Positions 7,837-36,344 of a stretch of DNA of 64,000 nt are shown piece by piece. Both the position numbers and the translations under genes were made by a program. Numbering within the stretch: the first letter of the stretch is position 1; every line of letters begins with the position of its first letter. This DNA is from an uncultured Gammaproteobacteria bacterium (GTDB taxonomy: Bacteria > Pseudomonadota > Gammaproteobacteria > CAWCPV01), in assembly GCA_963797555.1 (NCBI GenBank), contig CAWCPV010000007.1, forward strand, positions 512,001 through 576,000. The letters run 5' to 3'. Under the pieces are notes generated by a model. That model was not told where the DNA came from and did not search any database. It saw only the letters and a program-made list of their open reading frames with translations.

Positions 7837-7844
7837 GCCGTGCC

Positions 7845-8606
7845 TCACAAGCCGGAGAACCAGTTGTAACCCATGTCCTCCCAGTAGCCGCCCGGGTAGA
7901 CGTTGGTGACGAAGATTTCCGCGATATGTTTCGGGTTCTTGAAACCGAGCTTGGTGGGAATCCGCAGCTTCATGGGGAAGCCATACTTGGCGGGCAATAT
8001 CTCGTCGGCGTACTTGAAGGTCAATTGCGTCTGCGGGTGCAGCGCAGTGGCCATGTCGATGCTGGTGTAATAGTAGTCGAGGCAGCGGAAACCGACGTAT
8101 CTGGCCGACAGGTCGGCGCCGACGCGCTCGAGGAAGTAGCGGAACGGCACTCCGCTCCATTTGCCGATGGCGCTCCAGCCCTCGACGCACACGTGGCGGG
8201 TGATCTGCGACACCTGGGGTAGGGCGTAGAGCTGCGGCAGCGACCAGGGTTTTCGGTCGCGGATCAGGCCGCCGAGCATCAGCCGGTATCGCGCGGCGTC
8301 GACCCGGGGGACCTCGTCTTCGGCGTAATAGGCGTTGAACGGAAACGGCTTGGTGATCGCGCTTTCCGGGTAGACCGGCGCGAGCTTGTCGGGATTGAAC
8401 AGCCAGCCTTGCACGCGGTCGTTCCATTTCGACATGGCCCACAGCGTCTTATGCACCGCGTTGACGTCGGTGACGTCACATCCGGTGAGCAACGCCAGGG
8501 CCCCGAGGCTCAGCGAACGCTTGAGGAACAGCCGGCGCTCGATGAGCTGGATTTGTTTCGGGGGAACGGTCGCGAGAGCGGTGTAGCGGCGCGGGCGTTG
8601 CTTCAT
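7845..8606 (-). CDS. Molybdopterin-dependent oxidoreductase, sulfite oxidase/MsrP-like
   Basis: Tat-like RRLFLK plus LLTGC lipobox, HVCVEGWSAIGKWSG, YGFPMKLRIPTKLGFKNPK, GGYWEDMGYNWFSG. Confidence 0.88.
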   Translation of the reverse strand: MKQRPRRYTALATVPPKQIQLIERRLFLKRSLSLGALALLTGCDVTDVNAVHKTLWAMSKWNDRVQGWLFNPDKLAPVYPESAITKPFPFNAYYAEDEVPRVDAARYRLMLGGLIRDRKPWSLPQLYALPQVSQITRHVCVEGWSAIGKWSGVPFRYFLERVGADLSARYVGFRCLDYYYTSIDMATALHPQTQLTFKYADEILPAKYGFPMKLRIPTKLGFKNPKHIAEIFVTNVYPGGYWEDMGYNWFSGL

Positions 8607-20393: not shown

Positions 20394-20608
20394 CTCGACA
20401 CCTCCATGAAGCGGGTTATAGGACGAACGCCATCTTATCCGTCCAGCGCCTCCGCGGTGAGCTTTAAGTAGACCGACCGCAGGTCCGGAGGCGGACGTTT
20501 CGATTCGCCCGGGCCGAGGCAATAGCCTTGGCCCCGGCGCGCGGTGCCGTGTATCCTTGGCCCATCCTCAGGGGAAAACCGCGCGAAGACGCGGCTCGAA
20601 CAGGGAGC

Positions 20609-23285
20609 ATGGACGACTCGGCACCCCGCTATGATTTGTTCCTGAGCTACCACTGGCGCGACCGCCAAGCGGTCGAGTCGGTCGCGAAGGCGCTCACGGC
20701 GCGGGGGCTCAAGGTCTTCCTGGATCGCTGGTACCTCCCCGCCGGCCAGCCCTGGCCGCTCGCGCTCGAACAAGCGCTCGGCACCTGCCGCGCGGCGGCG
20801 GTGTTCCTCGGGCCGAACGGCGTGGGGAGCTGGCAGCAGCGGGAGAAGTGGCTCGCGCTCGACCGCCAGGCGCGGGAGCCGGGCTTTCCCGTGATCCCGG
20901 TGCTGCTGCCGCGCGCGGAGCAGCCAGCCCTGGAGTTCCTCTCCCTCAACACCTGGGTGGACCTGCGTGCCGCGCTGGACGATGCCGAGGCCCTGGACGT
21001 GCTCGTGCACGCCGCGCGCGGCGAGGCGCCGGGACCTACCCTGTCGGTGCGCCTGAGCGCCACGCTCGCGAGCATCGCCCCCTACCGCGGCCTCGGCGTG
21101 TTCCGCGAGGAGGACGCCCCCTTCTTTTTCGGCCGCGACGAGTTCATCGATCAACAGCTCCGGCCTACCGTCGAGGGGTGCTCGCTGGTCGCGGTGGTGG
21201 GGGCCTCGGGCAGCGGCAAGTCCTCGGTGGTCCGAGCGGGATTGCTGCCGCGGCTGCGCCGCGGCGAGGGCGGCAAGGTGTGGGAGATCGCGACCCTGCT
21301 CCCCGGCGACCGGCCGCTGCACGCGCTGGCCGCCGCCCTGCTGCCCTTGTTGGAGCCGGAGCGGGCCGAGCTGACCGAGACCGACCGGCTCGCCGAAGTG
21401 GGCAAGCTCGCCGGGCACCTCGCCGCGGGCACGGTGGCGCTGCGCGACGTGGTGGGTCGGGTGCTGGAGAAGCAGCTCGGGACCGAGCGCCTGCTGCTGG
21501 TCGCCGATCAGTGGGAGGAGCTTTACACGCTCACTCGGGAAAGCTCGGCTGCGCAGCGCTTCATCGAGGAGGTGCTGGACGCCACCGCCACCGCGCCGCT
21601 CACCGTGGTGCTGACCTTGCGCGGCGATTTCTTCGGCGAGGTGCTGGCGCACCGCGGGCTCGCCGATCGGCTGCAGGGCGGGGTCGTCAACCTGGGACCC
21701 ATGAATCGGGAGGAGATCGCGCAAGTGGTGGTGCGGCCGGCCGAGAAGGTCGGGCTCGCCTTCGAGCCGGGGCTGCCCGAGCGCATCCTGGACGAAGTCG
21801 GCGAGGAGCCGGGCCACCTGCCGCTGCTGGAGTTCGTGCTGACGGGGCTATGGCAGGACCGCCAAGCCGGCCGGCTGCTGCACGAGGCATACGATGCCAT
21901 GGGCGGCGTGCAGGGGGCGATGGCGCAGCGCGCGGAGGAGGTCTGGAAAAAGCTAGGTGAGCGTGAGGAGACCACGCTGCACCATCTCTTCCTGCAACTG
22001 GTCAGCGCCGGTGCGGGGACCGCGGACACGCGCCGACGTGCGGTACTCGCCGACCTTGCGCCCGCCGTGCGACCGGTGGTGGCGAAGCTCGCCCGCGAGC
22101 GGCTGCTGGTGATCGGGCGCGACGAGGCGAGCGGCGAGGAGACGGTGGAGGTCGCCCACGAGGCGTTGATCCGTCACTGGGATCGGTTGGGGAAATGGCT
22201 CGACGAGGACCGCGAGTTTCTGCTCTGGCGCCAGCGCCTGGAGGTAGCGCTCGCCCAGTGGAAACGTGCCGGCCGCAAGGACTCCGGCACCCTGCTGCGC
22301 GGGGCCCCGCTGGCCGAGGCCGAACGCTGGCTGGGGGAGCGTGGGGACGACCTGACCGAGGAGCAGCGCGCCTACGTGCGCGCGAGCCTCGCGGCGAGGG
22401 ACCGCCGCCGCTGGCTCACGGGAAGCGCGGCGGCGCTGGTCTTGCTCGCCTCTCTAGCGGTCGCCACCTGGCAGTATGGCGTGGCTGAGCGGCTGCGGCG
22501 TGAGCGGGCGCCGATCCCGCCCGCGATGGTCCTGATCGAGCCCCGCCCCTTCATGATGGGCTCCCCCGAGGGTGACAAGGAGGCACATCCCGATGAGTGG
22601 CCCGCCCACGACGTGGTGATCGCCAAGCCGTTCAAGATCGGCAAGTACGAGGTAACCTTCGAGGAATACGACCGCTTCGCGCTCGCCACCGGCCGTCGCC
22701 CGCCCAGCGACCAGGGCTGGGGCAGCGGCCAGCGCCCGGTGATCAATGTCTCCTGGGACGACGCCGTCGCCTATGCCCAGTGGCTGTCGAAAAAAAACCG
22801 GCCAGCGCTTTCGGCTGCCCACCGAGGCGGAGTGGGAGTATGCCGAGCGGGCGGGCAGCGTCACCGCACGCTTCTGGGGCGACGATCCGAAGCAGGCGTG
22901 CCGCTACGCGAACGTCTATGACAAGACGGGCGAGGCCGGAGGCAAGGAGAAATACGCGATCACCTGGGAGGCGCACGACTGCGAGGATGGCTTCGTCGAG
23001 ACCGCGCCGGTAGGTCGCTTTCAGCCCAACGCCTTAGTACTGTACGACATGCTGGGGAACGTCTGGGAGTGGGTGCAGGACTGCTGGCACGAGAGCTACC
23101 GTGACGATCCGCCGCGGGACGGCTCGGCCTGGCTGGAGGCTGATGGCGGCGATTGCGGTCGGCGCGTGGTCCGCGGCGGCTCCTGGAACTACGGACCGAG
23201 GGACGTGCGCTCGGCGGTGCGTGACAGGATACCGGCCGACTACCGGACCAACTACCTCGGTTTCCGCCTCGCCCAGGACTTGTAG
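20609..23285 (+). CDS. TIR-nSTAND1 NTPase-TM-FGE-sulfatase (CLec-fold) receptor, DGR target; frameshift in A8 run 22790-22797
   Basis: TIR (YDLFLSY, WQQRE); PYRGLGVF..FFGRD, GASGSGKSS, DQWEELY, LTLRGDF, LPLLEF, EVAHEALIRHW; TM helix; EVTFEEY, PVINVSWDDA, RLPTEAEWEY, DMLGNVWEW, RGGSW...GFRLAQDL. Confidence 0.9.
23165..23285 (+). other. Putative DGR variable region (VR)
   Basis: RGGSWNYGPRDVRSAVRDRIPADYRTNYLGFRLA with many NNC codons (TAC, GAC, GCC, ACC, AAC) at positions that are AAC in CLec-type template repeats. Confidence 0.7.
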
Positions 23286-23319
23286 CCCTTTGCTCTTTAT
23301 CCTTTTACCCTTTCGGGGG

Positions 23320-23342
23320 TCCAGGGGGCGGAGCCCCCTGGA
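23320..23342 (+). promoter_or_regulatory. DGR target-recognition hairpin (10-bp stem, GGA loop)
   Basis: TCCAGGGGGC-GGA-GCCCCCTGGA about 35 bp after the VR stop, preceded by a pyrimidine tract; no U-tract on the + strand. Confidence 0.75.
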
Positions 23343-23357
23343 GCGTCGGCTGAGCCG

Positions 23358-23632
23358 GTGAAGGACCTCACCCCCCACGCCGTGCAGTCCTGCCACGAGC
23401 TGCTGCTGTGGCTGCTGCCGCTGTTGGACAAGCTGCCTCGGGTACGGCGCTTCACGCTCGGGGAGCGCATCGAGAGCGCGCATCCTGGATGTGCTGGAGG
23501 CGCTCGTGGAGGCCGGCTACAGCGCCGGCGGGGCAAAGCGGACGGCGCTCAAACGGGCGAACCTGAGGCTGGAAGTGACGCGCCACCTCTGGCGCCTGTG
23601 CCACGAATCCCAGCTCGTATCCGCGCGGCGCT
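23358..23632 (+). pseudogene. avd: DGR accessory variability determinant Avd, frameshifted (~23478) and 3'-truncated
   Basis: AVQSCHELLLWLLPLLDKLPRVRRFTLGERIES / ILDVLEALVEAGYS..ANLRLEVTRHLWRLCHE..VSARR; the final helix ending GRQIGGW is missing. Confidence 0.82.
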
Positions 23633-23857
23633 CTTCCCCCACCGACGGCGCGGCGTCATCGAATCTCAACTCCCCCCGGACCACGACGGTGGGCGAAGGC
23701 GCGCTCGGGCACCTATATACTACGTAGCAAGGACGCCCTCCGGGCCGGTTCGCGGCCGAAACTACCGGCTCGAAAACGTAGCGCAGCCTGGGCAGCGCCC
23801 GCGCGAGGCCCCAACGCAGCGAGGCCACCCAGACAGGTCTGCAACAAGGAGAAACGC

Positions 23858-25192
23858 ATGAACCGCCCCCTTTGCTTCGTCCTCATGCCCTTCGGCAAGA
23901 AGCCGGATGCCGGGGGCTCGGTGGTCGACTTCGACGCCGTCTACCGGGAGCTGATCGCCCCGGCCATTGAGGAGGCCGGGTTGGAGCCCCTGCGCGCCGA
24001 CGAGGAGATGACCGGCGGCATCATCCACAAGCCGATGTTCGAGCGCCTGATCCTCTGCGAGTATGCGGTGGCCGACCTCACCACGGCCAACGCCAATGTG
24101 TTCTACGAGCTGGGCGTGCGCCATGCGGTGCGCCCGTTCAGCACGGTCCCGCTATTCGCCGCAGGCGGCAGCCGCTTGCCCTTCGATGTGGCACCGCTGC
24201 GGGCGATGCCTTACCGGCTGACCCCCGAGGGCAAGCCTGCGGAAGTGGAGGCCGACAAGAAGGCATTGGTGGAACGTCTCGAAGCGGCCGAGCAAGAGGC
24301 CGCTACCGACAGCCCCGTGTACCAGCTCGTCGAGGGGTTCCCGGACGTCGACCACGCCAAGACCAACGTCTTCCGCGACCAAGTGCGATACGCGGCCGAG
24401 ACCAAGCAACGGCTCGCGGCGGCCCGCAAGCAGGGGGCCGAGGCGGTGCGGGCGGTGGAGCGGGAGCTCCGGGACATCCGTAACCAAGAGGCCGGCGTGG
24501 TGATCGACCTTTTCCTGTCCTACCGCGCCGTCAATGCCTGGGAGGACATGATCGCCCTGGTGCCGAAGATGTCTCCGGCACTCGCTCCCACCGCCATGGT
24601 GCAGGAGCAGCTCGCGCTCGCACTCAACCGTGCGGGGCGCGGGGAAGAGGCCGAGCGAGTGCTCCTCGACCTTATCCAGAGGCGCGGGCCGAGCAGCGAG
24701 ACCTACGGCATCCTGGGGCGGGTATACAAGGACCGCTGGGAGGCCGCAGCCAAGGCCGGTGATCGCTTCCTCGCCCGCGGGCTGCTGGACAGAGCGGTCG
24801 AGGCGTACCTCAAGGGCTTCGAGGCCGACTGGCGCGACGCCTATCCCGGCATCAACGCCGTCACCCTGATGGAGCTGAAGGACCCGCCCGACCCGCGGCG
24901 CGGGGCGCTCCTACCGGTGGTCTCCTACGCCGTGGAGCGGCGCATCGCCGCCGGCAAGCCCGACTACTGGGACCACGCCACCCGCCTGGAGCTGGCGGTG
25001 CTGGCCAGGGAGGAGCAGAAGGCGAAGGCAGCGCTCTCCGACGCGCTCCCTGCGGTGCGCGAGCCCTGGGAGCCCGAGACCACCGCGCGCAACCTGCGTC
25101 TGATTCGAGAGGCCAGGGAGGGGCGGGGGGAAGAGGTGCCGTGGGCGAGGGAGATCGAACGGGAGTTGGAGCGGCGATCGCAGCGGCGCTAG
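23858..25192 (+). CDS. Nucleoside deoxyribosyltransferase-like domain + TPR-S (DUF4071/MAP3K TRAFs-binding) protein
   Basis: CFVLMPFG, LRADEE, VADLTTANANVFYELGVRHA; EQLALALNRAG, SETYGILGRVYKDRW, YPGINAVTL, DYWDHAT, WEPETTARNL. Confidence 0.85.
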   Translation: MNRPLCFVLMPFGKKPDAGGSVVDFDAVYRELIAPAIEEAGLEPLRADEEMTGGIIHKPMFERLILCEYAVADLTTANANVFYELGVRHAVRPFSTVPLFAAGGSRLPFDVAPLRAMPYRLTPEGKPAEVEADKKALVERLEAAEQEAATDSPVYQLVEGFPDVDHAKTNVFRDQVRYAAETKQRLAAARKQGAEAVRAVERELRDIRNQEAGVVIDLFLSYRAVNAWEDMIALVPKMSPALAPTAMVQEQLALALNRAGRGEEAERVLLDLIQRRGPSSETYGILGRVYKDRWEAAAKAGDRFLARGLLDRAVEAYLKGFEADWRDAYPGINAVTLMELKDPPDPRRGALLPVVSYAVERRIAAGKPDYWDHATRLELAVLAREEQKAKAALSDALPAVREPWEPETTARNLRLIREAREGRGEEVPWAREIERELERRSQRR

Positions 25193-25460
25193 TGCCCCAC
25201 AGCCGCGACCTCACTTAGCGCTCTGAGGGGATCGAGATCCCAGGTGCGCCAGCGTAACGCACCAGGCATACAGACCAAGGTCGGTTCGTTACGTTATGCT
25301 CGGGCGGTTGGCGCTGAGACGCCGACCAAGCTGCCAGAGCGCTCCGACGACAGGATATGAATGCGGTGCGTGGGCAGGCGCAGATGCGTCGGTCAGGTGT
25401 ACTTTGGGCACTTTATTGGGGCTGGATTGGGGCTGAGCGGGGAGTTTCGGCGGAGCATCG

Positions 25461-26111
25461 ATGCGGATCAAGAACGCATGTTTCATCAGCTATTGCCACG
25501 GTCAGAATGAGCTGATCAAGGGTTTCATCGAGCAGCTCTGTAGAGCACTCAAGAACTACCTGGAGCCGCTGATGGACGAGGGGGTATATGTCGATTACGA
25601 GCGGCTTCAGCCCGGTTACCGATTCAACGAAGCCCTGGCCAGAGATATTTGCGAGAGCGTTTGCATGATCGTGGTCTACTACCCCAGATACGAGCAGCAC
25701 TCGTATTGCCGGCGCGAGTTCGCGGCCATGGAGATCATGGAGGAGCACCGCAAGGCCCTACTGGGTGCCCACCTACATGGACGTGGCTTCATTATTCCGG
25801 TGATTCTCACTACCGGCGCTGACGGAGTCCCCGACAAGATCAAAGGTGCCCTCCACTACTCCGATTTCTCTGGGTGGACCCTTGCCAGCAGCGATATTAG
25901 CCGTAACCCGGACTTCATACCGGCCATTAAGGACATCTGCACAGCTATCCACGAGCTCTACGAGCTGCTGCGGCAGAAGATTGCCGCCGGAAATCAGCAT
26001 ATGGACTGCGTCGACTTCCGGGTTCCCGCTGAAGCCGACGCGCCGCCTTGGCAACACGGGGGGACAGTGCCTGGCCCATTGCCCTTTCCCGGCCGGAAGT
26101 CCGCCCCGTGA
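25461..26111 (+). CDS. Standalone TIR-domain protein (FxsC-like)
   Basis: CFISYCH, VYVDYERLQPG, YYPRY..SYCRREF (catalytic Glu), IIPVIL. Confidence 0.82.
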   Translation: MRIKNACFISYCHGQNELIKGFIEQLCRALKNYLEPLMDEGVYVDYERLQPGYRFNEALARDICESVCMIVVYYPRYEQHSYCRREFAAMEIMEEHRKALLGAHLHGRGFIIPVILTTGADGVPDKIKGALHYSDFSGWTLASSDISRNPDFIPAIKDICTAIHELYELLRQKIAAGNQHMDCVDFRVPAEADAPPWQHGGTVPGPLPFPGRKSAP

Positions 26112-28912
26112 AGCCAGCCATCGCGGGCGAGGTAATCACCTTCTATTCCTACAAGGGTGGTACGGGCCGCTCCATGGCGCTGGCCAATATCGCTTGCCTG
26201 CTTGCTGCCTCGAGTGCAGACGGCCGTGAGGTGCTTATAGTGGACTGGGATTTGGAGGCGCCAGGCCAGCACTGGTTCTTCCTCCGCTCGCAGCTTCCTG
26301 GGGCGAACGACGGATGGCGTGCGGCCGGGAGTGACGAGCGACCAGGGTTGATGGAACTGCTTGAGATGCTAGAACGCAAGGTGCCGAAGACCGATGCGGA
26401 GTCGGTCGTCGAGGCTGAAGCGCAGGCCGAGAAGCTATTTGAAGGCCTGTCGCTCGAAACCTACGTCACTCCGACGGCCTTTCCCAAAGTCCATTTGCTC
26501 AAGGCCGGACGGCTCGACTCGGGCTATCCAGAACGGGTCAACACCTTCGCCTGGGAGGGCCTCTACCGGCGTGCGCCGTACCTTTACCAGACCTTAGCCA
26601 GGCACCTTGCGGCGCGGTACCGCTACGTCATCATCGACGCGCGCACCGGGCTTGCGGACATGAGCGGGATATGCACGACCCTCATGCCGGAAAAGCTGGT
26701 CGTGGTGTTTACCCCTAATCGACAAAGCCTGACCGGTATGTCGGAGGTAATCAAGCGAGCTACCACGTACCGTCGCCGTTCCGACGACCTGCGGCCCCTG
26801 CTCGTCTACCCTCTGCCATCGCGCATCGATTCAGAGCGGGACGAGTTGCGCAAGCGTTGGCGGTATGGGGACTCCACGCATGGAGTCGACGGTTACCAGC
26901 CACTCTTCGAGCGGCTGTTCCAGAACGTCTACGGGCTGAAGCAATGCGACCTGGGGGCCTATTTCGATGAGGTGCAGATCCAGCACAGCCCCGATTACGC
27001 CTATGGTGAAGAGATCGCCGTCAACGTGGAGACGAGCGAGGACCGCTTTTCCCTCGTTAGGAGCTACAAGGCGTTGCTGGAATGGCTGGCCAACTCCTAC
27101 GCGCCTTGGGAAGGTCTGGAGCAGGCACGCGCGATCCGCGACCTCGGCGTACTGGAGGTGAAGGAGCGCGAGTTGCGGGCTCGGGCCGGGGCGGACGCCG
27201 AGGCGAGGCGCGAGCTAGCGTCGTTGCGAGAGGAAATCTTCACCCGCAAGGCAAAGTTAAAGGGCGAGCAGGATCCCGATACCCTGGCGGCAATGGACCG
27301 GCTGGCCCGAACCGTCTGGGAGCAAGGTGACTGGAACGCAGCGCGACGGCTGCAGGAGCAGGCGATCGAGGCCCGCCGCCGGGTGCTGGGCGAGGAGCAC
27401 CCCGACACCCTGACCAGCATGGGCAACCTGGCCGCGACGCTCCGGGCCCAGGGCGACCTCCCCGGCGCCCGCGCCCTTCAGGAAAAGGTCCTGGAGGTCA
27501 GCCGCCGGGTGCTGGGCGAGGAGCACCCCGACACCCTGACCAGCATGGGCAACCTGGCCGCGACGCTCCGGGCCCAGGGCGACCTCCCCGGCGCCCGCGC
27601 CCTTCAGGAAAAGGTCCTGGAGGTCAGCCGCCGGGTGCTGGGCGAGGAGCACCCCGACACCCTGACCAGCATGGGCAACCTGGCCGCGACGCTCCGGGCC
27701 CAGGGCGACCTCCCCGGCGCCCGCGCCCTTCAGGAAAAGGTCCTGGAGGTCAGCCGCCGGGTGCTGGGCGAGGACCACCCGGACACCCTGAGGAGCATGG
27801 GCAACCTGGCCGCGACGCTCCGGGCCCAGGGCGACCTCCCCGGCGCCCGCGCCCTTCAGGAAAAGGTCCTGGAGGTCCGCCGCCGGGTGCTGGGCGAGGA
27901 CCACCCAAACACCCTGACCAGCATGGGCAACCTGGCCTGGACGCTCCGGGCCCAGGGCGACCTCCCCGGCGCCCGCGCCCTTCAGGAAAAGGTCCTGGAG
28001 GTCCGCCGCCGGGTGCTGGGCGAGGACCACCCAAACACCCTGACCAGCATGGGCAACCTGGCCTGGACGCTCCGGGCCCAGGGCGACCTCCCCGGCGCCC
28101 GCGCCCTTCAGGAAAAGGTCCTGGAGGTCAGCCGCCGGGTGCTGGGCGAGGACCACCCGGACACCCTGACCAGCATGAACAACCTGGCCGGGACGCTCTG
28201 GGCCCAGGGCGACCTCCCCGGCGCCCGCACCCTTCAGGAAAAGGTCCTGGAGGTCCGCCGCCGGGTGCTGGGCGAGGACCACCCGGACACCCTGACCAGC
28301 ATGAACAACCTGGCCGGGACGCTCTGGGACCGGGGCGACCTCGCCGACGCCCGCGCCCTTGAGGAAAAGGTTCTCGAGGTCCGCCGCCGGGTGCTGGGCG
28401 AAGACCACCCAAACACCCTGACCAGCATGGGCAACCTGGCTGGCACGCTTGGGGCCCAGGGCGACCTCCCCGGCGCCCGCGCCCTTCAGGAAAAGGTCCT
28501 GGAGGTCCGCCGCCGGGTGCTGGGCGAGGACCACCCAAACACCCTGACCAGCATGGGCAACCTGGCCTGGACGCTCCGGGCCCAGGGCGACCTCCCCGGC
28601 GCCCGCGCCCTTCAGGAAAAGGTCCTGGAGGTCCGCCGCCGGGTGCTGGGCGAGGACCACCCAAACACCCTGACCAGCATGGGCAACCTGGCCTGGACGC
28701 TCCGGGCCCAGGGCGACCTCCCCGGCGCCCGCGCCCTTCAGGAAAAGGTCCTGGAGGTCCGCCGCCGCCTGCTCGGCCCTGAGCACCCCGACACACTTCG
28801 GGCAATGGCCCAGCTCGCCGAAACACTCGATAAGTCGGACGACAAGGCTGCCCTCGCCGCGCTGCAGAAAGAGATCATTGCCTCAGTACAGCGTTTGCAG
28901 AAAACGCCCTAG
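26108..28912 (+). CDS. ParA/MinD-like (KGGxGR-variant) ATPase fused to a 42-aa TPR array (FxsT-like)
   Basis: TFYSYKGGTGRSMALAN, VDWDLEAPG, IIDARTGLAD, FTPNRQSL; GTG start overlaps the TIR stop (GTGA). Confidence 0.85.
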   Translation: MKPAIAGEVITFYSYKGGTGRSMALANIACLLAASSADGREVLIVDWDLEAPGQHWFFLRSQLPGANDGWRAAGSDERPGLMELLEMLERKVPKTDAESVVEAEAQAEKLFEGLSLETYVTPTAFPKVHLLKAGRLDSGYPERVNTFAWEGLYRRAPYLYQTLARHLAARYRYVIIDARTGLADMSGICTTLMPEKLVVVFTPNRQSLTGMSEVIKRATTYRRRSDDLRPLLVYPLPSRIDSERDELRKRWRYGDSTHGVDGYQPLFERLFQNVYGLKQCDLGAYFDEVQIQHSPDYAYGEEIAVNVETSEDRFSLVRSYKALLEWLANSYAPWEGLEQARAIRDLGVLEVKERELRARAGADAEARRELASLREEIFTRKAKLKGEQDPDTLAAMDRLARTVWEQGDWNAARRLQEQAIEARRRVLGEEHPDTLTSMGNLAATLRAQGDLPGARALQEKVLEVSRRVLGEEHPDTLTSMGNLAATLRAQGDLPGARALQEKVLEVSRRVLGEEHPDTLTSMGNLAATLRAQGDLPGARALQEKVLEVSRRVLGEDHPDTLRSMGNLAATLRAQGDLPGARALQEKVLEVRRRVLGEDHPNTLTSMGNLAWTLRAQGDLPGARALQEKVLEVRRRVLGEDHPNTLTSMGNLAWTLRAQGDLPGARALQEKVLEVSRRVLGEDHPDTLTSMNNLAGTLWAQGDLPGARTLQEKVLEVRRRVLGEDHPDTLTSMNNLAGTLWDRGDLADARALEEKVLEVRRRVLGEDHPNTLTSMGNLAGTLGAQGDLPGARALQEKVLEVRRRVLGEDHPNTLTSMGNLAWTLRAQGDLPGARALQEKVLEVRRRVLGEDHPNTLTSMGNLAWTLRAQGDLPGARALQEKVLEVRRRLLGPEHPDTLRAMAQLAETLDKSDDKAALAALQKEIIASVQRLQKTP
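27374..28759 (+). repeat. 11 tandem 126-bp near-identical repeats encoding kinesin-light-chain-type TPRs
   Basis: Unit (R/S)RRVLGE(D/E)HP(D/N)TL(T/R)SM(G/N)NLA(A/W/G)TL(R/W/G)AQGDLPGARALQEKVLEV; 11 x 126 = 1386 bp. Confidence 0.97.
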
Positions 28913-29302
28913 CCGACAGCGCCTGAGTGCCGGGGCATCATCCGCGGCGGCCTGACGAAACAGTGCGTCCCTCAGCTCGATGGGGTGGATGTGGGCGGCC
29001 CTGGCCTCGGGATTCACGACCAGCACTCGACACCTCGGATCGCCCTCGCGGCTTGTGGCGAGAAAGCCCGCCGTCGGCTCCCACTGGCAGGCGCGGGAGC
29101 GCGCGTAGTGCTCGGAGTAATAGGCGAACACGGCCTTGGAATTGGCGATGCCCTCGACGATGGCGCGGGTGATGCTGGAGTAGTCCCGGATGTCGCTCTC
29201 GTCCTGCCAGACCGCCAGGCCGGAGGCTCGCAGCGCCTCGACGATGGGACGCACCGCGCCCCGGTTCTTGTGCGGATAGCTGAGGAATAAGTCACAGGAC
29301 AT
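28883..29302 (-). pseudogene. TIR domain, probably the truncated N-terminus of a larger TIR-NTPase protein
   Basis: DLFLSY, GLAVWQDESDI, YYSEHYARSRACQWE; frame runs into the 3' end of the convergent TPR gene. Confidence 0.7.
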
Positions 29303-29359
29303 CGCGGACTCTTGGCTGTGCATGCAGCGCGGGCCGCCGTTGGATCGAAGCCGACGGTC

Positions 29360-29803
29360 TCAGGGAGCCAGCAACCGATGCTTGACGCTGAGGGAAGCGG
29401 CCGATCGGGCCAGCAGTACATCGCAGGTCACCAGCACGGCGCCCAGCGCATGTGCACAGGCGAGGTGCAGTGCATCCAGGGTGCGCAACGGTGTCATCCG
29501 GGCGAGCAGCCAGCGCTCTGCCTGCCGATAATGGCGTGCATCGAGCGCAACGACCCGAAAGCAGCCGCTCTCCAAATCCTCGCGGTAGGCGGATTCGACT
29601 TCTGCGGCCTGAGCGGGGGTCAATTCACCCATTCGCACCCATCGGGCCAGTGCCGAGGCAAGCTCGATCTGGGTCAGGAGGGTCAGCAGCGCCGGGCGGG
29701 TCAACGACATCAACAGCGCCTGCACAGCATCACTCACGGCCTCCTCACGGTAGTAAGGCAGCAGCGCGCTGGTGTCCAGGTACAGCTCCTCAGTAGCGCT
29801 CAT
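29360..29803 (-). CDS. vapC: VapC PIN-domain toxin
   Basis: LYLDTSALL, IELASAL, LRTLDALHLA, LVTCD. Confidence 0.9.
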   Translation of the reverse strand: MSATEELYLDTSALLPYYREEAVSDAVQALLMSLTRPALLTLLTQIELASALARWVRMGELTPAQAAEVESAYREDLESGCFRVVALDARHYRQAERWLLARMTPLRTLDALHLACAHALGAVLVTCDVLLARSAASLSVKHRLLAP

Positions 29804-30032
29804 CCTCTCTCAGACCGCGTACGATCTCGGCGCTGGTGATCTGGCTGACAGGTAGCCGCTGGCGGAACGCCCGCCGGTCCGGAAAGCACACGCCCTGCGG
29901 CTGTGGAGCGATAGCCACCAGGCGTGCTATCGCTTTGCCGCGGCGCTCGATGACGACCTCCTCGCCAGCCTCGACGGCATCCAGAAGCCGGCCTATCTGG
30001 GCCCGCAGTTCGCGGATATTGACTACGTGCAT
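29790..30032 (-). CDS. Phd/YefM-family antitoxin
   Basis: VNIRELRAQIGRLLDAVEAGEEVVIERRGKAIARLV; overlaps vapC. Confidence 0.9.
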   Translation of the reverse strand: MHVVNIRELRAQIGRLLDAVEAGEEVVIERRGKAIARLVAIAPQPQGVCFPDRRAFRQRLPVSQITSAEIVRGLREDERY

Positions 30033-30047
30033 CGTGTCCTCCCCGGA

Positions 30048-30069
30048 ATGTACACCGAGCAGTGTACAT
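30048..30069. promoter_or_regulatory. Probable toxin-antitoxin operator
   Basis: Perfect inverted repeat ATGTACAC-N6-GTGTACAT immediately upstream of the antitoxin. Confidence 0.65.
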
Positions 30070-30245
30070 GCACTAACGGCGGATTGCCGGGGGCCGACGA
30101 CAGCGTTCTGGCAAAAGCTTGCGGCGGCAAGGGGTTGCCGCCCTAAAGGCTCCGCGGAGTCATGTCTCGTCGATCTGAGGGCCTCGCCAGCGCGATGCTT
30201 GCGACGTGTACCGACTTACGGACTCGATGCCGCAGCTACCAGGAC

Positions 30246-30418
30246 GAGCAGAAGGCGATACCGGCGCTCGCGGACGCGCTGGCCGCGGTGCGGAGCCCTG
30301 GGAGCCCGAGACCACCGCGCGCAACCTGCGGCCCATCCGAGAGGCCAGGGAGGGGCGGAGGGACGACGTACCGTGGGCGAGGGAGATCGAGGGGGAGTTG
30401 GAGCAACGGGCACGGTAA
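30246..30418 (+). repeat. Diverged orphan copy of the 3' end of the DUF4071/TPR-S gene (25013-25192)
   Basis: 38-bp exact block 30293-30330 = 25061-25098; encodes PWEPETTARNLRPIREAREGRRDDVPWAREIEGELEQRAR*. Confidence 0.88.
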
Positions 30419-30632
30419 TAACTAAGTCTTTGCGGCTGGCACATCGCTGAAAGGATGCTGCGTTACTCGACGTACGCCGGCAAGAAACACGATACTGCGG
30501 ACTTCAGCACGGCTCGATTATCATAAACGGTGCGCCCTCGGCTTTTTGTGTGAGTCCAACTGCGAAGGGTCCGCAGAGGCTCTTGCAGGCCAGCCATGTC
30601 AAAATCACTGCTCCGTAGGTGGGGTTACGTGC

Positions 30633-33600
30633 GTGCAGCACCCTGATCACTTCGAGTGGGACGTGTTCCTGAGCTACAGCCATGCGGACAAGCCGCGAGT
30701 TCTCCGTCTGGCCGAAAGGTTGCGCGATGCCGGGTTGCACGTTTGGCTGGATGACTGGGTAGTCCGGCCCGGCGATGACTTCAATCTTGCAATACAAGAG
30801 GGGCTTCAGCGCTCCCGGCGGCAGGTGTTCTGCATTTCGAAAGAATCGGTCGAATCTGACTGGGCCCGCGCTGAGCAGAATAGCGTTCTTTTCCGGGACC
30901 CTCTCAACCGCGAGCGCCGGTTCATACCGTTCTTTTGGAAGACTGCGGCATACCCGATTTCGTCGGGCGCTTCCATCGTGTCGACCTCCGCTCGGAAACC
31001 GAAGAGGCATGCCGCCAGCCCATCGACGCCTGCTCACCGGCACATTACGGGACCATGGCCGCAAACGCGCCAGGTACCGCGACTCGGGAGGAGCTTGACG
31101 TCCTTCGCGACAGGTTCGCCCATGCATCGCAGGACCTCCTCCGCTGGCCCGCATCTCTCCCCGGAGGCACATGGTTGGAGCGGCCGGAGCTGGACGATAT
31201 CCTGCGCTCGATCGAAACCACACGATCCTCCTTGACCCTTCTGCTCGGTGAACCAGGGGGCGGCAAGTCGGCCCTGTTGGCCCGCCTTGGTGCGCTTCTC
31301 CAGGAGCGCGCTATAGCCCTGCTGGCGATCAAGGCTGACTTCCTGCCCAGCAACGTCCTGACGCTCTCGGATCTGTCGACCTATCTGCAGTTTCCCGTCA
31401 CGGTGGACCGGGCATTCCCACTGCTCGCAGCCCAAGGGCCCGTGGTGCTCCTCGTCGATCAGCTCGATGCCTTGGCCGACATGGTGGTGCAGCATGCAGA
31501 GCGCCTGAAGCCCCTGCTCGAACTCATCGAGACTCTCGCTGAGATCGATACCGTCCATATCGTGGCATCGTGCCGTACCTTTGAGCACCGCCACGATCCA
31601 CGCCTGCGGAGCCTTGCTGCGGAGCCCCTGCAACTCTCCCTCCCTGGCTGGGAATCTGTGGCGTCCACATTGCGCCATTGGGGTATCGAAGCAGGAGCCT
31701 GGAGCGCTTCGATCCGCGAAGAACTCCGTAGTCCTCACGTATTGGCGCTGTTCCTCGACTTGCTGAAAGACAGGCACGAAGCGCACGTGCTCTCTTGCTA
31801 CCAGGCGATGCTGGATACCCTCTGGCAGCAACGGGTGCTGCACGACACGACCGGGGCACGACGCCAACTGCTATTCGACATGGCGGAACAGATGGCCGAA
31901 CGAGAGACGCTATGGTTGCCGTTGGCGATGTACGAGGACCGGCGGGAGACGGTTCACGCGCTGGCGCGCGATGGAATCCTCACCACGGACGACGCGGGTC
32001 TGCGCGTCGGCTTCCGACACCAGACCCTATTCGAATTCGTGCGCGCTCGCAGTTTTCTCGAGGAGTCGGGTCGGCTTACCAATGCCGTCGTCGCCCGGCA
32101 AACCAGCCTGCGCGTTCGTCCGCAACTGTGGCATGCCCTGGGCTATCTGCGCGCAGCCGATCGCAGCACGTATCTTGGGGAGATCGAACTCCTTTGGCAC
32201 GCCGATCTGCGTGCCCATTTGCGCGCGCTCGTCATCGAGTTCCTGGGGCGGATGCACGATCCCGAGCAGCGCGAAGCTCATCTGCTACTCGCGAGCTTCG
32301 ATGACCCTTGGCACAGGCGTCGGATCTTGTCCGCCGTTGTCGGTAGCCCCGGCTGGTTTCGGTTGCTGATGCCCGGTCACTTGCCGATGCTGATGTCCGG
32401 AACTGCTGAGGAAGCGTCGCAGGCACTCCCAGTTCTGCAAGCGGCTCTCGTCTTCGCCCGCGACGATGTACTTGAGCTGGCGGATTCCCATTGGATGGCT
32501 CACATGGAACGGGACGTGGTGATATGGCGCCTGCTGGAAGAGGTACCGCAGTGGGACAATGCGGTGGTGGACCGGTTCTGCCGCGTTCTCGGCCGGACGG
32601 AGATCGCCGCGTGGGCCGTGAACGCACTCGCGAGCAAGGTGAGCGCGGCACTGCCCAACGAGGCGCCTCGACTTGTCGCCGCATGGCTGCATCGCCAGCT
32701 CAGATCTATTGCGACCAATGCCTCTGCCACAACATCAAACCGCGATGCCGACCCCACCGAGACCGCGGCGGGAGATATCAGCCAGATGGACCCGCACGCG
32801 GGCTACCGCAAACTAGTCGGCGAGCAGCGACTGCACGACCTGCCCGCGGTCGCCGAGGCTGCCCCGTGGTCGTTCCTCAATGCTGTCTGGCCATGGTTCC
32901 TCACGGTGCTGCAGCAAGCGGCCGAAGAACCGCACCCGTTCGTTATCGGGTACCGCGACGACCACGGTTTGGTTACGGACTGGGAGAACGACGCAGACCT
33001 CGAGCGCGAGCACCCACTTCTCAAAGCGCTGGAGATCGCAGTGGACGGAGTCGCGGCGCGAGAACCCCGCGCCTTCCTCGAGTTCGTCGAGACCCATCGC
33101 CGGCACGACTTGCTTATGCTTCTGGTACAGCGCCTGCTGGCCCGCGGAATGTTGCAGCTCGTCGATGCGTGGCCTAACGAGGTGCTTGAGTTTCTCACCG
33201 AGGATCCGCGGCGGTTTGCGCTGGAACCGTCGGCCAATGAGCACGCCGATTCACAGCGGTTGATAAGGGCCGTCGTTCCTCGCCTGGACGCGAGCGGCCG
33301 CCGGCGGCTGGAAGAGGCCCTTATTCGTTGGAGCCACTATACTCGTCATCCGGAGGACGAACCCGACGTTCGTTTACGCCGCCTGCGATGGAGCCGCGAG
33401 CACCGGCTCCGGCTGCTGCGCGCATTCCCGAGGGAGTACATGAGCGAGGATTGCCGCCAACTCCTCGATGCGGAAACGCGGGCTTTCCCCGACTTGAGTG
33501 ACCGAGATACGTGGTTTTCCGGCGTACGCGTGGTCGGTAGCCCAATGAGTCCAGAGCAGATGGCAAATGCAAAGGACGAGCACATTCTGAATCTCTTCGA

Positions 33601-35069
33601 AGAGCTTACCGATGACCATGGCTGGGACCACCCACAAAGCTGGGGCCGGGGTGGTCCGATACAGGCGGGGCGAGCTGGCATCGAAAGACCCGGAGCGAGG
33701 CGTCCGGATTGCTCGACTGCTACGACCAGTCCGAAACGAGTATCCGGTAAGCCAAGTGTTGGAAGGCTTGGTGAAGGGCGGCTACGCTCCCGAATCACTC
33801 TACACTTTGATCTTAGAACTTAGCCAGCGTGGATTCACAGGCGATGCATTCAGGCACGCCGCGGCTCGCGCCATAGCAACGGTCGTCTCCAGCGCACAAC
33901 CGTTGCCCGACGAGGTATTCCAACTGCTTGAGGGTTGGTTGGTCCCTGCGGATCGGATTTCTCGAGAGCGCTCGGAGGATCGGGATGATGTGAGAGAGAG
34001 GACAGCATTCTTTGGGGATATGCACGGATGCGGGTCCTGCCGCACGGAAACTATCCGATCCTGCAGGCGCTCTCGGAGGCTTGCCTCGTTGCCCAACCCA
34101 CTCAAGCGGTCCGTTGGCGCACTTTGTTGGAACGGCATCTGGGGCACGACGAAGATATTGAAGTGTGGGCGGCTATGGGGACCTATCTACAGTGGCTGCA
34201 TTTCGCGGACCGTAACCGAGCCGAAGATTTCATGCAGCGCCTGTGGGGCCGCTATCCTGAGCTTCTCGAACGAGTCGAGGGTATCCATCTCTTAGCCCAT
34301 GCACAGCACTGGGTGGGAGCAGAGCGGCTACGCCTGGCTAGAGACCACGCGCGGCAGGGGATCTCGCCTTGCCTGTCAGGGCTACGGTGAAGTCGCCATG
34401 CTGCGGCACGGCTTGTTCCCGCGCGAACAGTGGGCAACGGAGCGGGTCCGATCCATCGTGTACGGTGCGGCCTCCGATACATGCGTTCGAGCGGCTCGCG
34501 TCGGGGTGGCGCATAGTGCTGCCGCGCTGTGGAAGGAGGCTGAGTACCGTCCAGTGGCTCACCCGACCGTGGTCGCGCTGATCGCCGACAAGGATCCTGG
34601 CGTACTCAAAGCGCTAAGGGCCATATTTCGGGTCAAGGCCCTATTCCCAGACGACATGACTCGCGAGCTTTTGGATGCCATCTCCGCCAACCCGGCCATT
34701 CTTGGTCAGAACGACACAGAATTTCTGCTCGGACACCTCGAAGGACTAGTTGTAGGGGAGCCCGAGCGCGTCCACCGCGTGTGCCTCGCACTGCTCGACC
34801 GTTTCGGCGAACAGTTCGCCAGTCCCCATTCCCGGGCGTATCTCGATGGGGATATCTTGATTTCGATCGCCCTACGACTGCTAGAGCTGGGGCCATCGCA
34901 GCAGGAGCACGGCACCGAGCTATTCGAGCGGATGATGGAGCTCAACTTGCCGGGGATTACCGGAGTGCTGGTCGACCTCGACAAGCGGATGCCCAATACA
35001 CCGGCTTATGGACGCAATAGACCTCGGAGGCGCAGGAGACGGCAGGCAGACCGCGCTGACAACGGATAG
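30633..35069 (+). CDS. Large TIR-STAND/NACHT-like NTPase with long helical C-terminus (Avs-like), split by about 4 frameshifts
   Basis: TIR WDVFLSYSHAD..WARAE; GEPGGGKS Walker A; VLLVDQLDAL Walker B; IVASCR; FRHQTLFEF; contiguous ORFs join near 30935, 33670, 34010 and 34320. Confidence 0.75.
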
Positions 35070-35210
35070 CCCCTGAACCGAAAAATCCGTGCCTTCCTAT
35101 CCTGTGCTTAATACGCCGTGCAGCCACAATTGCCCCGATCGTCGGGCCACGAGTGCATACCGATGGGGGTGCCTAGCGTGACCGCGGTCATCGTGCCAGG
35201 CTGAACGCAT

Positions 35211-35624
35211 TTACCGTCGATATCCAACGCCCCAGACGCGCAACAGGGCCTGGCAGCCCGCATCAAAGGTGTCTGTGAAGTCCACGTGCTCGAAGCTCGA
35301 AAGCGTCCAAGAGAGCTGCTCGAAATCGCAGTCCTGGTGCAAGACGGGCACGATGCGCTCGTCGAAGCGCTCGTGCTGCAGCGCGTAAAGCAGCTCCCGC
35401 TTTACCCACCGGGACGCTACCGCGGCCGGGGACAACACCAGGACGAACCAATCACAACGCCGCAGGGCGGCGCCGATCTCGTCGTGCCATTGCCGGGCGC
35501 CCAGGATCGCCCGCCGACTGTACCACACCGGTAGCCCGTGCCTGACAAGCATGCCCGCCAAGCGCTCGGCGAACGCATGGTCCTGGTCGGAGTGGGACAG
35601 GAATAGTTCCTGGGGTGGTGCCAC
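35211..35624 (-). CDS. Standalone TIR-domain protein
   Basis: LFLSHSDQD, LSPAAVASRWVKREL, IVPVL. Confidence 0.88.
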   Translation of the reverse strand: MAPPQELFLSHSDQDHAFAERLAGMLVRHGLPVWYSRRAILGARQWHDEIGAALRRCDWFVLVLSPAAVASRWVKRELLYALQHERFDERIVPVLHQDCDFEQLSWTLSSFEHVDFTDTFDAGCQALLRVWGVGYRR

Positions 35625-35645
35625 GGAAGCGCGTGAACAGGCTTA

Positions 35646-36050
35646 TCAGGCGGCTTCCGTGAGCAGGCTTGCGACGCGACGCAGACCTTCCCGGTCATCC
35701 CGGCCAAGTCTCACCGTTTGAAGACGTTTCAGGATCCAGGGTAGCTCCTCGTCCGGGACCTCTTGGGGCGTTCCTACGATGATGGGGACGAGTCGGCCCT
35801 TGAAAGTCTTCTCACCCAGGGCATACTCCAGCTCCGCCCGTACGAAACGCGAACGGACCCCCGCGGGCGTGAACAGGACCACCATGGCGTCCGAGTTCTG
35901 GAGCGCCTGCCCCGCCTCCAGCGCCAGGTTGTCTCCAGGCAGCACATCCCGCTCGGCGTCCCACACCTCGAGACCGGCTTCCTGCAGCGCGTCGCCCACA
36001 CGGCGCGCCAGATCCACGTCTTCGTGCGCGTGACTTAGGAAGACTTTCAT
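35646..36050 (-). CDS. Standalone TIR-domain protein
   Basis: MKVFLSHAHED, FTPAGVRSRFVRAELEYAL, LVPII. Confidence 0.88.
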   Translation of the reverse strand: MKVFLSHAHEDVDLARRVGDALQEAGLEVWDAERDVLPGDNLALEAGQALQNSDAMVVLFTPAGVRSRFVRAELEYALGEKTFKGRLVPIIVGTPQEVPDEELPWILKRLQTVRLGRDDREGLRRVASLLTEAA

Positions 36051-36344
36051 GGAAAGAGCCTACTCGAACCCCAAATGGACTACAACCACCGTAGCAGGGC
36101 CCCACCGGCGCTGTTTTGGGTCCGTGCTGGCAGGCGCTGCTATCAAGGCTTCAGACCCCAGGCGAGAACTATCGGCAGCGTCGATCCGAATGAGCCGAAG
36201 CCCGAAGATCGCGTTGGCGGGTGCCCAACCGGGGCTGGCTGCCCTCCGGCCCAGAGCCGCATGAATACGTCTCTCCCATGGACCTGGGCCGATAAGGGCC
36301 TCGACCCCAGGAGATCTTCCTCCGGCAAGCGCTCTAGCCTCGCG

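What the first reader, a model, noticed from the sequence alone, without database searches (positions are those of the whole stretch)
23165..23632. Orphaned DGR: a TIR-STAND-CLec receptor keeps its variable region and hairpin, but the retroelement is cut off inside avd
Seen: the FGE-sulfatase C-terminus ends in a VR-like segment rich in NNC codons, followed by a pyrimidine tract, a perfect 10-bp stem with GGA loop (23320-23342) and an avd gene that stops before its last helix. I find no second VR-like copy (template repeat) and no reverse transcriptase in the window. Known: DGRs mutate adenines of a template into CLec-fold VRs, need such a hairpin, and can act on remote targets in trans. Inference: this is a hypermutable membrane-spanning immune receptor (cytoplasmic TIR+NTPase, exported variable lectin fold) that is either frozen or served by a DGR elsewhere in the genome.
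Basis: partly seen in the sequence, partly recalled or inferred. Interest (0 to 1): 0.8.

Follow-up and report, generated by a model that had tools for sequence, protein, structure and literature searches.

The report
Decayed orphan DGR target locus
This is the leftover of a bacterial hypermutation cassette: a TIR/STAND sensor gene keeps its once-variable tip and DNA hairpin, but the mutating machinery is gone and the sensor gene itself is now broken.

Summary
A TIR + nSTAND1 + one TM helix + FGE-sulfatase (CLec-fold) gene (20528-23285) ends in a segment homologous to the variable repeats of intact DGRs in the same genome. It is followed by a conserved pyrimidine spacer, a perfect 10-bp/GGA hairpin (23320-23342) and an Avd remnant that loses homology at 23631.

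- The receptor gene is split by a +1 frameshift in an A8 run (22790-22797).
- The avd remnant carries its own +1 frameshift (about 23461-23482).
- The genome (84.6% complete) holds six TR/VR sets with adenine-specific mismatches, and none matches this VR. The best TR gives 32 mismatches, only 14 of them at adenines.

There is no DGR reverse transcriptase on this contig.

A paralogue on contig C20 has a VR that differs from this one at 15 of 123 aligned positions. Thirteen of those lie where the homologous TR has adenine (P = 2e-8). Both VRs were therefore once written from one template that is not in the assembly.

Verdict: a recently orphaned, frozen and pseudogenised DGR target. Degenerate DGR loci and TIR/STAND-CLec targets are already described (Doré 2024, Kaur 2020), and the scan noted a similar orphan on other DNA before. 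It is a new member of a known kind, of modest interest.

The parts
20528..22921 (+). Upstream reading frame of the receptor: TIR_2 (aa 38-157), nSTAND1 (aa 185-585), one TM helix (aa 629-651, about 22412-22480), and the first 110 of 255 profile positions of FGE-sulfatase (aa 665-755). It then runs out of frame to a stop at 22919-22921.
22790..22797 (+). A8 run, the site of the +1 frameshift that splits the receptor gene.
   Evidence: the Pfam FGE match breaks at profile position 110; this is the only one of 109 homopolymers of 8 nt or more in the genome flagged as a frame break; metagenome contigs of relatives have one base fewer here.
22798..23285 (+). C-terminal part of the FGE-sulfatase (CLec-fold) domain in the second frame (the ORF as listed runs 22746-23285); stop TAG at 23283-23285.
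   Evidence: FGE-sulfatase profile positions 110-254, E 3.5e-33.
23150..23272 (+). Former variable repeat (VR). The block shared with the C20 sister VR extends over 23128-23279.
   Evidence: 74% identity to the C14 TR over 123 nt; near-identity block with C20; 13 of 15 window/C20 differences lie at adenines of the homologous TR, P = 2.4e-8.
23286..23319 (+). Pyrimidine-rich spacer; its core TTTTACCCTTT (23303-23313) is shared with the C14, C20 and C4 copies.
23320..23342 (+). Perfect 10-bp GC-rich hairpin with a GGA loop, of the DGR target-recognition type.
   Evidence: z = -3.86, 0 of 200 shuffles fold as well; both VRs of the intact C14 DGR carry the same loop and a near-identical stem at the same distance; no terminator-like site, no Rfam match.
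23358..23480 (+). avd remnant, piece 1 (Avd profile positions 4-36).
   Evidence: NF033474, E 2.6e-5; 75% identity to residues 1-36 of the C14 Avd.
23461..23631 (+). avd remnant, piece 2, in the next frame (Avd profile positions 38-85 of 104). One extra base lies somewhere in 23461-23482, and homology ends at 23631.
   Evidence: one 117-nt contig of a relative lacks one base at 23482.
23632..23857 (.). Sequence beyond the breakpoint. It has no similarity to Avd, TR or RT and no repeat elsewhere in the genome. The next gene starts at 23858 (MAP3K_TRAF_bd / TPR-S protein).
   Evidence: blastn finds self only.; a 157-nt soil-metagenome contig with 1 difference bridges 23564-23720.

Best explanation
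This is a degenerate, orphaned DGR target locus.

The gene encoded a membrane-spanning conflict-system sensor with four parts: a cytoplasmic TIR effector, an nSTAND1 NTPase, one TM helix, and an extracytoplasmic FGE/CLec-fold domain. The C-terminal roughly 125 nt of that domain was rewritten by mutagenic retrohoming from a template repeat. The cis recognition module (VR 3' end, pyrimidine spacer, GC hairpin with GGA loop) survives.

The cassette that followed it was cut after Avd residue 84. The rest of avd, the TR and the RT were replaced by unrelated DNA that leads into another conflict-system gene.

The same lost template also wrote the VR of a second receptor on contig C20. The deletion may therefore have orphaned both at once.

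Since then the locus has been decaying. One extra A (A7 to A8) breaks the receptor frame upstream of the VR, and one extra base breaks the avd stub. The VR is frozen and, in this genome, is not translated together with the TIR-NTPase part.

Shown: the anatomy, the homologies, the absence of a cognate TR or RT in the assembly, and the adenine-site footprint. Inferred: the order of events, that the lost TR sat at this locus, and the topology.
For: - Domains and the split of the FGE match at profile position 110.
- Avd remnant in two frames, ending at profile position 85 of 104.
- No RVT_1 match on C7 among 19 in the genome. No RT or Avd C-terminal match in 23000-30000 at E below 0.1.
- Six TR/VR sets elsewhere have 12 of 12 to 20 of 20 mismatches at TR adenines. 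This VR has 11-14 of 32-38 mismatches at adenines against each of them.
- Window and C20 VRs differ at 15 of 123 aligned positions. Thirteen are at adenines of the homologous C14 TR (28 A in 123; hypergeometric P = 2.4e-8), and 13 of the 15 are at codon positions 1-2. The flanks are only 41-77% identical.
- The hairpin has the same loop and a nearly identical stem as both VRs of the intact C14 DGR.
- The assembly is not indel-noisy. Frame breaks were flagged at 1 of 109 homopolymers of 8 nt or more (this one), 2 of 518 of 7 or more, and 6 of 2703 of 6 or more, against 10 of 3000 random sites.
- Two frameshifts lie within 700 nt at one locus.
- A 157-nt soil-metagenome contig with 1 difference spans the breakpoint.
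Against: - The genome is only 84.6% complete, so a cognate TR and RT could lie in the missing part.
- The perfect hairpin, and a VR scaffold that differs from C20 at only 1 non-variable site within 23150-23272 (a second third-position T/C difference, at 23141, lies in the wider shared block), show that orphaning was recent. They are equally what a live trans-target would look like.
- The A8 frameshift sits in a homopolymer, and no raw reads of the source sample were available. A single assembly error cannot be excluded.
- The metagenome contigs that show one base fewer at 22790 and 23482 are short and 85-95% alike. They may come from other strains or from paralogues.
Confidence: 0.65

Rival explanations
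1. The locus is a live remote target. A DGR in the unassembled roughly 15% of the genome carries the cognate TR and still diversifies this VR (and the C20 VR) in trans. The receptor frameshift is either an assembly error or is bypassed.
For: - The hairpin is perfect.
- The VR scaffold differs from the C20 VR at 1 non-variable site, while the flanks are 41-77% identical.
- Trans-diversification of degenerate DGR loci is documented in Thiohalocapsa PB-PSB1 (PMC10907252, passages read).
- Genome completeness is 84.6%.
Against: - No TR among the six in the assembly fits, and no other blastn hit to the VR region reaches 80% identity except the C20 VR itself.
- The receptor frame is broken upstream of the VR in an assembly that otherwise shows background-level frame breaks.
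- The local avd stub carries a second frameshift.
Confidence: 0.15
2. The receptor is intact but frozen. The A8 run is a one-base assembly error. The cell makes a full-length TIR-nSTAND1-TM-FGE sensor with a fixed specificity, a former DGR target kept by selection without its diversifier.
For: - The frameshift lies in a homopolymer.
- Contigs of relatives show one A fewer at this site: X1, 2 contigs, depth 24.1 of 24.1; X5, 1 contig, 6.81 of 12.6.
- The sister receptor on C20 is an intact 989-aa ORF with no cis DGR.
- 13 of 34 homologous nSTAND1-FGE loci elsewhere have neither avd nor RT nearby.
Against: - Only 1 of 109 homopolymers of 8 nt or more in the assembly is flagged, and it is this one. 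A systematic homopolymer error is therefore unlikely.
- A second, non-homopolymer frameshift in the adjacent avd stub suggests relaxed selection on the whole locus.
Confidence: 0.12
3. The A-run is a contingency switch. Slipped-strand changes (A7/A8) or transcriptional slippage turn production of the full-length sensor on and off, or keep it at a low level.
For: - An 8-nt A run is rare in a 65% GC genome: 11 A8 and 9 T8 runs in 5.3 Mb.
- It sits inside a coding region.
- Relatives' contigs carry a different run length.
- That long A-runs cause polymerase slippage is established knowledge; it was not tested here.
Against: - At the aligned position the C20 paralogue has no A-run, so the tract is not conserved between these two copies. 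The other paralogues were not compared at this site.
- No population data show both lengths in one strain.
- The neighbouring avd frameshift points to plain decay.
Confidence: 0.05

Closest known systems
Degenerate or remote DGR loci of Thiohalocapsa sp. PB-PSB1 (Doré et al. 2024, PNAS, PMC10907252; passages read)
   Same: - One genome carries many DGR loci, some complete and some 'degenerate', where key machinery is missing or pseudogenised.
- Targets are CLec-fold sensors fused to nSTAND1/NACHT NTPases, some with N-terminal TIR or peptidase effectors.
- One locus (DGR 1) shows no current diversification.
   Different: - There, the VRs of most degenerate loci still match a TR elsewhere in the genome at all non-adenine sites. 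Here no TR in the assembly matches.
- The PB-PSB1 loci are degraded by IS/MITE elements. No repeat or IS signature was found at this breakpoint.
- Here the target gene itself is frameshifted.
The intact DGR on contig C14 of the same genome (avd, RT, TR 7804-7928, two caspase-FGE targets)
   Same: - Its Avd is 75% (residues 1-36) and 58% (residues 30-84) identical to the window's remnant.
- It has the same spacer core and the same GGA-loop hairpin about 45 nt after the VR.
- Its TR is 74% identical to the window's VR, with adenines at the window's variable codons.
   Different: - It is complete, and its VRs differ from its TR only at adenines (12 of 12 and 16 of 17 mismatches).
- Its targets carry Peptidase_C14 instead of TIR-nSTAND1.
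- Its TR has 18 non-adenine mismatches to the window's VR, so it is not the cognate template.
BPP-1 phage DGR target site: IMH plus hairpin/cruciform (Guo et al. 2011, PLoS Genet, PMC3240598; passages read)
   Same: A GC-rich 7-10 bp stem downstream of the VR. In BPP-1 it is required for efficient retrohoming, and the stem structure matters rather than its sequence.
   Different: - The phage consensus loop is 4 nt (GRNA) and the hairpin lies 4-34 bp from the VR.
- Here, and in most of the intact DGRs of this genome, the loop is 3 nt (GGA, GAA, GCA, AGA) and lies about 45 nt from the end of TR homology.
- Function was not tested here.
FGS/CLec effectors of NTP-dependent conflict systems (Kaur, Burroughs, Iyer, Aravind 2020, eLife, PMC7159879; passages read)
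   Same: The FGS domain always sits at the C-terminus of variable N-terminal modules, is linked to DGRs, and occurs in conflict-system islands together with TIR, caspase and TPR proteins.
   Different: That paper centres on MoxR-vWA ternary systems. This gene is a single-chain TIR-nSTAND1-TM-FGE protein and has lost its DGR.

Membership tests
Diversity-generating retroelement (complete cassette) | DGR-clade reverse transcriptase at the locus | tested here: not met
   19 RVT_1 matches in the genome, none on contig C7; tblastn with the C14 DGR RT gives no C7 hit at E <= 1e-5; nothing better than E 0.1 in 23000-30000.
Diversity-generating retroelement (complete cassette) | Template repeat whose mismatches to the VR lie at template adenines | tested here: not met
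   no second copy in the window or on the contig; against the six TRs of the assembly there are 32-38 mismatches, 11-14 of them at adenines. The genome is 84.6% complete, so this is not exhaustive.
Diversity-generating retroelement (complete cassette) | VR at the C-terminus of a CLec/FGE-fold target gene | tested here: met
   (FGE-sulfatase, E 3.5e-33); homology to a real TR, and an adenine-site footprint against the sister VR (P = 2.4e-8).
Diversity-generating retroelement (complete cassette) | GC-rich hairpin/cruciform downstream of the VR | tested here: met
   The loop is 3 nt rather than the 4-nt GRNA of phage DGRs (PMC3240598), but it is the same as in the intact C14 DGR.
Avd (NF033474 DivGenRetAVD / PF22296 bAvd) | Profile match above the curated cut-off over the whole four-helix bundle | tested here: not met
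   two fragments score 24.5 and 24.6 bits against a cut-off of 80, covering positions 4-36 and 38-85 of 104; bAvd scores 14.2 bits against a cut-off of 40. The intact C14 Avd scores 60.4 bits.
Avd (NF033474 DivGenRetAVD / PF22296 bAvd) | Homology to an Avd encoded next to a working DGR RT | tested here: met
   75% identity over 36 aa and 58% over 57 aligned columns to the C14 Avd (joint E 4e-19).
STAND-NTPase CLec sensors diversified by DGRs (Doré 2024) | nSTAND1 or NACHT NTPase fused upstream of a C-terminal CLec/FGE domain, optionally with an N-terminal effector | tested here: met
   TIR_2 78.9 bits, nSTAND1 398 bits, FGE-sulfatase 61.8 + 115.8 bits.
STAND-NTPase CLec sensors diversified by DGRs (Doré 2024) | One uninterrupted reading frame | tested here: not met
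   the frame changes at the A8 run 22790-22797. argues against a systematic assembly error. Raw reads were not available.
STAND-NTPase CLec sensors diversified by DGRs (Doré 2024) | Ongoing diversification of the VR in the population | not testable with these tools
   no run holds more than 0.08 of the sampled words, and only short contigs of relatives could be laid.

The most novel reading that the evidence does not exclude
One template repeat, now deleted or unassembled, served two receptors with different N-terminal parts in trans: TIR-nSTAND1 here, and an unnamed 250-aa N-terminus plus nSTAND1 on C20. On this reading the retained VR-spacer-hairpin module is a portable landing pad that stays competent after its own cassette dies. 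The locus would still be rewritable, and the A7/A8 tract would act as an on/off switch for the sensor.
Probability: 0.12. Interest if true: 0.55.

Novelty: new member of a known kind. Interest (0 to 1): 0.3.

Why it matters
The locus shows how DGR-diversified immune-type sensors go out of service. The diversifier is lost first, by deletion inside avd. The target keeps its recognition hairpin for a while. Then the target gene itself decays.

With its two paralogues the genome offers a small decay series:
- C20: receptor intact, avd stub of 31 aa.
- C4: receptor frameshifted, no avd, hairpin degraded.

The sister-VR comparison gives a way to infer a lost template, and past trans-homing, from the targets alone.

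None of this changes the current picture of DGRs. It adds one well-resolved example to it.

Tried and rejected
- Close relatives for synteny. The 40 nearest held genomes are only 'same class', each in a different family. None has the locus (best foreign hit 75% over 233 nt). L021 from the unpublished G039 was fetched automatically and not used.
- Orthologous loci in public collections. The best protein identity is 63-70%, so there is no true ortholog that would show the ancestral junction.
- Sequencing runs. Five runs were listed, with shares of 0.04-0.08, none of them the source sample. Laying four of them gave only short contigs, 85-99% alike. VR polymorphism could not be assessed. The single listed VR difference (23194 G>A in X1 and X5) is not interpretable.
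- Mobile-element signature at the breakpoint. blastn of 23600-23870 against the genome finds only itself.
- Synteny of the downstream genes. tblastn with five of the window's flanking proteins (four downstream, plus the upstream GlgX-like enzyme) found no match in the 160 fetched loci.
- Other readings of the hairpin. No terminator-like or promoter-like site lies in 23100-24000, and there is no Rfam match in 22500-24500 at E <= 1.
- PF05635 (23S_rRNA_IVP) as an Avd detector. It gives 4 matches in the genome and none at this locus. NF033474 and PF22296 were the informative models.
- -1 ribosomal frameshifting at the A run. Considered and rejected, because the downstream frame needs a +1 shift.
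Full report
**Anatomy of the receptor.** The window is G000:C7:512001-576000, from a 5.35-Mb, 20-contig, 65% GC assembly that is 84.6% complete. On the + strand a 797-aa frame starts at 20528. It matches TIR_2 (aa 38-157), nSTAND1 (aa 185-585, 398 bits) and the first 110 of 255 profile positions of FGE-sulfatase (aa 665-755). A different frame, 22746-23285, matches FGE-sulfatase positions 110-254. The two frames meet at a run of eight A at 22790-22797, so the receptor gene is split by a +1 frameshift. The only strongly hydrophobic stretch is residues 629-651, preceded by RDRRR. By the positive-inside rule this places TIR and the NTPase in the cytoplasm and the FGE/CLec domain outside; that topology is inferred.

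**The target module.**
- Positions 23150-23272 align without gaps to the template repeat of an intact DGR on contig C14 (74% identity).
- The stop codon is at 23283-23285.
- A pyrimidine spacer follows. Its core TTTTACCCTTT (23303-23313) is shared with the C14, C20 and C4 copies; the C6 copy differs.
- Next comes a perfect 10-bp stem with a GGA loop at 23320-23342. Folded as DNA it gives z = -3.86, and 0 of 200 shuffles fold as well.
- It is not followed by a T run. No terminator-like or promoter-like site and no Rfam family is found here.
- Both VRs of the intact C14 DGR carry CCAAGGGGGC-GGA-GCCCCCTTGG at the same distance. Most other intact DGRs of this genome also have GC stems with 3-nt loops (GAA, GCA, AGA) after their VRs.
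- Guo et al. 2011 (PMC3240598, passages read) showed that such a hairpin is needed for efficient retrohoming in phage BPP-1. Their consensus is a 4-nt GRNA loop 4-34 bp from the VR, so the version here is a variant of that form.

**The avd remnant.**
- 23358-23483 matches NF033474 DivGenRetAVD positions 4-36 (E 2.6e-5). The next frame, 23482-23724, matches positions 38-85 of 104 (E 2.4e-5). Both scores are far below the whole-protein cut-off, as expected for fragments.
- The Avd of the C14 DGR aligns to 23373-23480 with residues 1-36 at 75% identity, and to 23461-23631 with residues 30-84 at 58%. Nothing matches residues 85-109, and nothing matches the RT anywhere in 23000-30000.
- The stub therefore has one extra base somewhere in 23461-23482 and loses homology at 23631, before the last helix.

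**Beyond the breakpoint.** 23632-23857 has no similarity to anything else in the genome. At 23858 a MAP3K_TRAF_bd/TPR-S gene starts. It is followed by a TIR gene and a ParA-like/TPR gene.

**No cognate template.**
- None of the 19 RVT_1 matches in the genome lies on C7.
- A scan for repeat pairs with adenine-biased mismatches found six TR/VR sets. Their TRs are at C14 7804-7928, C14 227735-227860, C6 61146-61272, C4 376905-377038, C3 47654-47783 and C4 520444-520577. Between 12 of 12 and 20 of 20 mismatches lie at TR adenines in the cleanest pairs.
- Against each of these TRs the window's VR shows 32-38 mismatches, of which only 11-14 are at adenines. The true VRs of C14 show 12 of 12 and 16 of 17.
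- No other genomic hit to 23000-23360 reaches 80% identity except a paralogous VR on C20.

**Footprint of past diversification.**
- The C20 paralogue is an intact 989-aa protein with an unnamed N-terminus, nSTAND1 and FGE.
- It is nearly identical to the window across 23128-23279, while the flanks are 41-77% identical with indels.
- Within 23150-23272 the two differ at 15 of 123 positions. Thirteen lie where the homologous C14 TR has A (28 A in 123; hypergeometric P = 2.4e-8), and 13 of the 15 are at codon positions 1-2. Five of the differences are adjacent doublets.
- Neither sequence is all-A at these sites, so both are VRs, written from one and the same template that is not in the assembly.
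- C20 has its own 31-aa avd stub, only 61% identical to the window's. The two cassettes are therefore not recent duplicates, and a shared template implies homing in trans at some time. That is inference.

**Are the frameshifts real?**
- I tested every homopolymer in the genome for a change of the high-GC3 open frame across it. Frame breaks were flagged at 1 of 109 runs of 8 nt or more (this one), 2 of 518 runs of 7 or more, and 6 of 2703 runs of 6 or more. Random sites gave 10 of 3000. The assembly is therefore not indel-noisy.
- The second frameshift, in avd, is not in a homopolymer.
- No run holds the source sample (shares at most 0.08).
- Short metagenome contigs that are 85-99% alike show one base fewer at 22790 (X1: 2 contigs, depth 24.1 of 24.1; X5: 1 contig, 6.81 of 12.6) and at 23482 (X1: 1 contig, 4.81 of 4.81). 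This fits intact ancestral frames, but these contigs may come from other strains or from paralogues.
- One 157-nt soil contig with a single difference bridges 23564-23720. The truncation junction therefore exists outside this assembly.

**How usual is this state?**
- Among 160 loci fetched with the receptor's N-terminal part (identities of the best segment 40-70%), 60 have the FGE C-terminus fused or adjacent, and 34 of these have at least 3 kb downstream.
- Of those 34:
  - 12 have avd plus a DGR RT.
  - 2 have an RT but no detected avd.
  - 7 have only an avd fragment of 25-60 residues: the first part of avd in six, an internal piece (residues 29-59) in L139.
  - 13 have neither.
- L040 and L112 are the same contig filed twice, so the loci are not all independent.
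- A perfect hairpin of at least 7 bp within 150 nt of the FGE end occurs in 6 of the 12 complete loci, 0 of the 7 avd-fragment loci and 3 of the 13 loci with neither. The background is 49 of 1020 windows. A hit in L146 is an artefact of masked N bases.
- Orphaned nSTAND1-FGE genes with avd stubs are therefore common. The window is unusual only in still having a perfect hairpin, which points to a recent loss.
- Within this genome a third paralogue, on C4, is frameshifted, has no avd and has a degraded hairpin.

**Literature.**
- Doré et al. 2024 (PMC10907252; passages read) describe nine DGR loci in one Thiohalocapsa genome. They include 'degenerate' loci with missing or pseudogenised machinery, trans-diversification, one locus that is not diversified, and targets with nSTAND1/NACHT plus CLec and N-terminal TIR or peptidase effectors.
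- Kaur et al. 2020 (PMC7159879; passages read) describe C-terminal FGS domains linked to DGRs in conflict systems.
- The scan itself noted an orphan DGR-type FGE protein on other DNA before (e1-2334249; not tested here).
- I made no literature search aimed at inferring a lost TR from sister VRs, so I make no claim that this is new.

**Reading.** Most likely (about 0.65) this is a recently orphaned, frozen and pseudogenised DGR target. The rivals are:
- a live trans-target of an unassembled DGR (0.15);
- an intact but frozen receptor, with the frameshift being an assembly error (0.12);
- an A-tract switch (0.05).

Raw reads of the source sample and a closed genome would decide among them.

Noticed in passing
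window 30240-30415: A fragment 80% identical (41 aa, plus 61% over 23 aa) to the C-terminus of the 444-aa MAP3K_TRAF_bd/TPR-S protein encoded at 23858-25192. It is a remnant of a second copy, so this island has been rearranged more than once.
   Followed up: no
window 20500-39800: A conflict-system island with four TIR-domain genes (20639-20998 within the receptor; 25461-26108; 28883-29323 minus strand; 35211-35624 minus strand). It also holds a MAP3K_TRAF_bd/TPR-S gene, a ParA-like + TPR gene (26048-28912) and a TPR-S + patatin gene (37152-39806, minus strand). Upstream of 20000 are housekeeping genes (GlgX-like debranching enzyme, ABC transporter).
   Followed up: partly
G000:C20:84672-87889 (L185): A sister orphan: an intact 989-aa protein (unnamed N-terminus + nSTAND1 + FGE), a hairpin with an 8-bp stem, and only a 31-aa avd stub. 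A DDE transposase gene lies directly upstream.
   Followed up: partly
G000:C4:543551-546533 (L186): A third paralogue. Its nSTAND1 part and FGE part are in different frames, it has no avd, and its hairpin is degraded. It is a more advanced stage of the same decay.
   Followed up: partly
G000:C3:48588-49437: The RT of the C3 DGR matches in two pieces in different frames (residues 77-233 and 228-347 of the C14 RT). Even so, its TR still has two VRs with adenine-biased mismatches (16 of 18 and 14 of 16).
   Followed up: no
G000:C4:520444-520846: A TR/VR pair with 20 of 20 mismatches at adenines but no DGR-type RT match within about 100 kb on that contig.
   Followed up: no
L054, L117, L126, L128, L132, L139, L174: Short avd stubs (25-60 residues; the start of avd in six, an internal piece in L139) downstream of nSTAND1-FGE genes without an RT recur in other genomes. 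Several are labelled Nitrospira or Nitrospirota MAGs. None keeps a perfect hairpin of 7 bp or more.
   Followed up: partly
G000, contig not noted: The assembly contains one T run of 92 nt and one A run of 29 nt.
   Followed up: no
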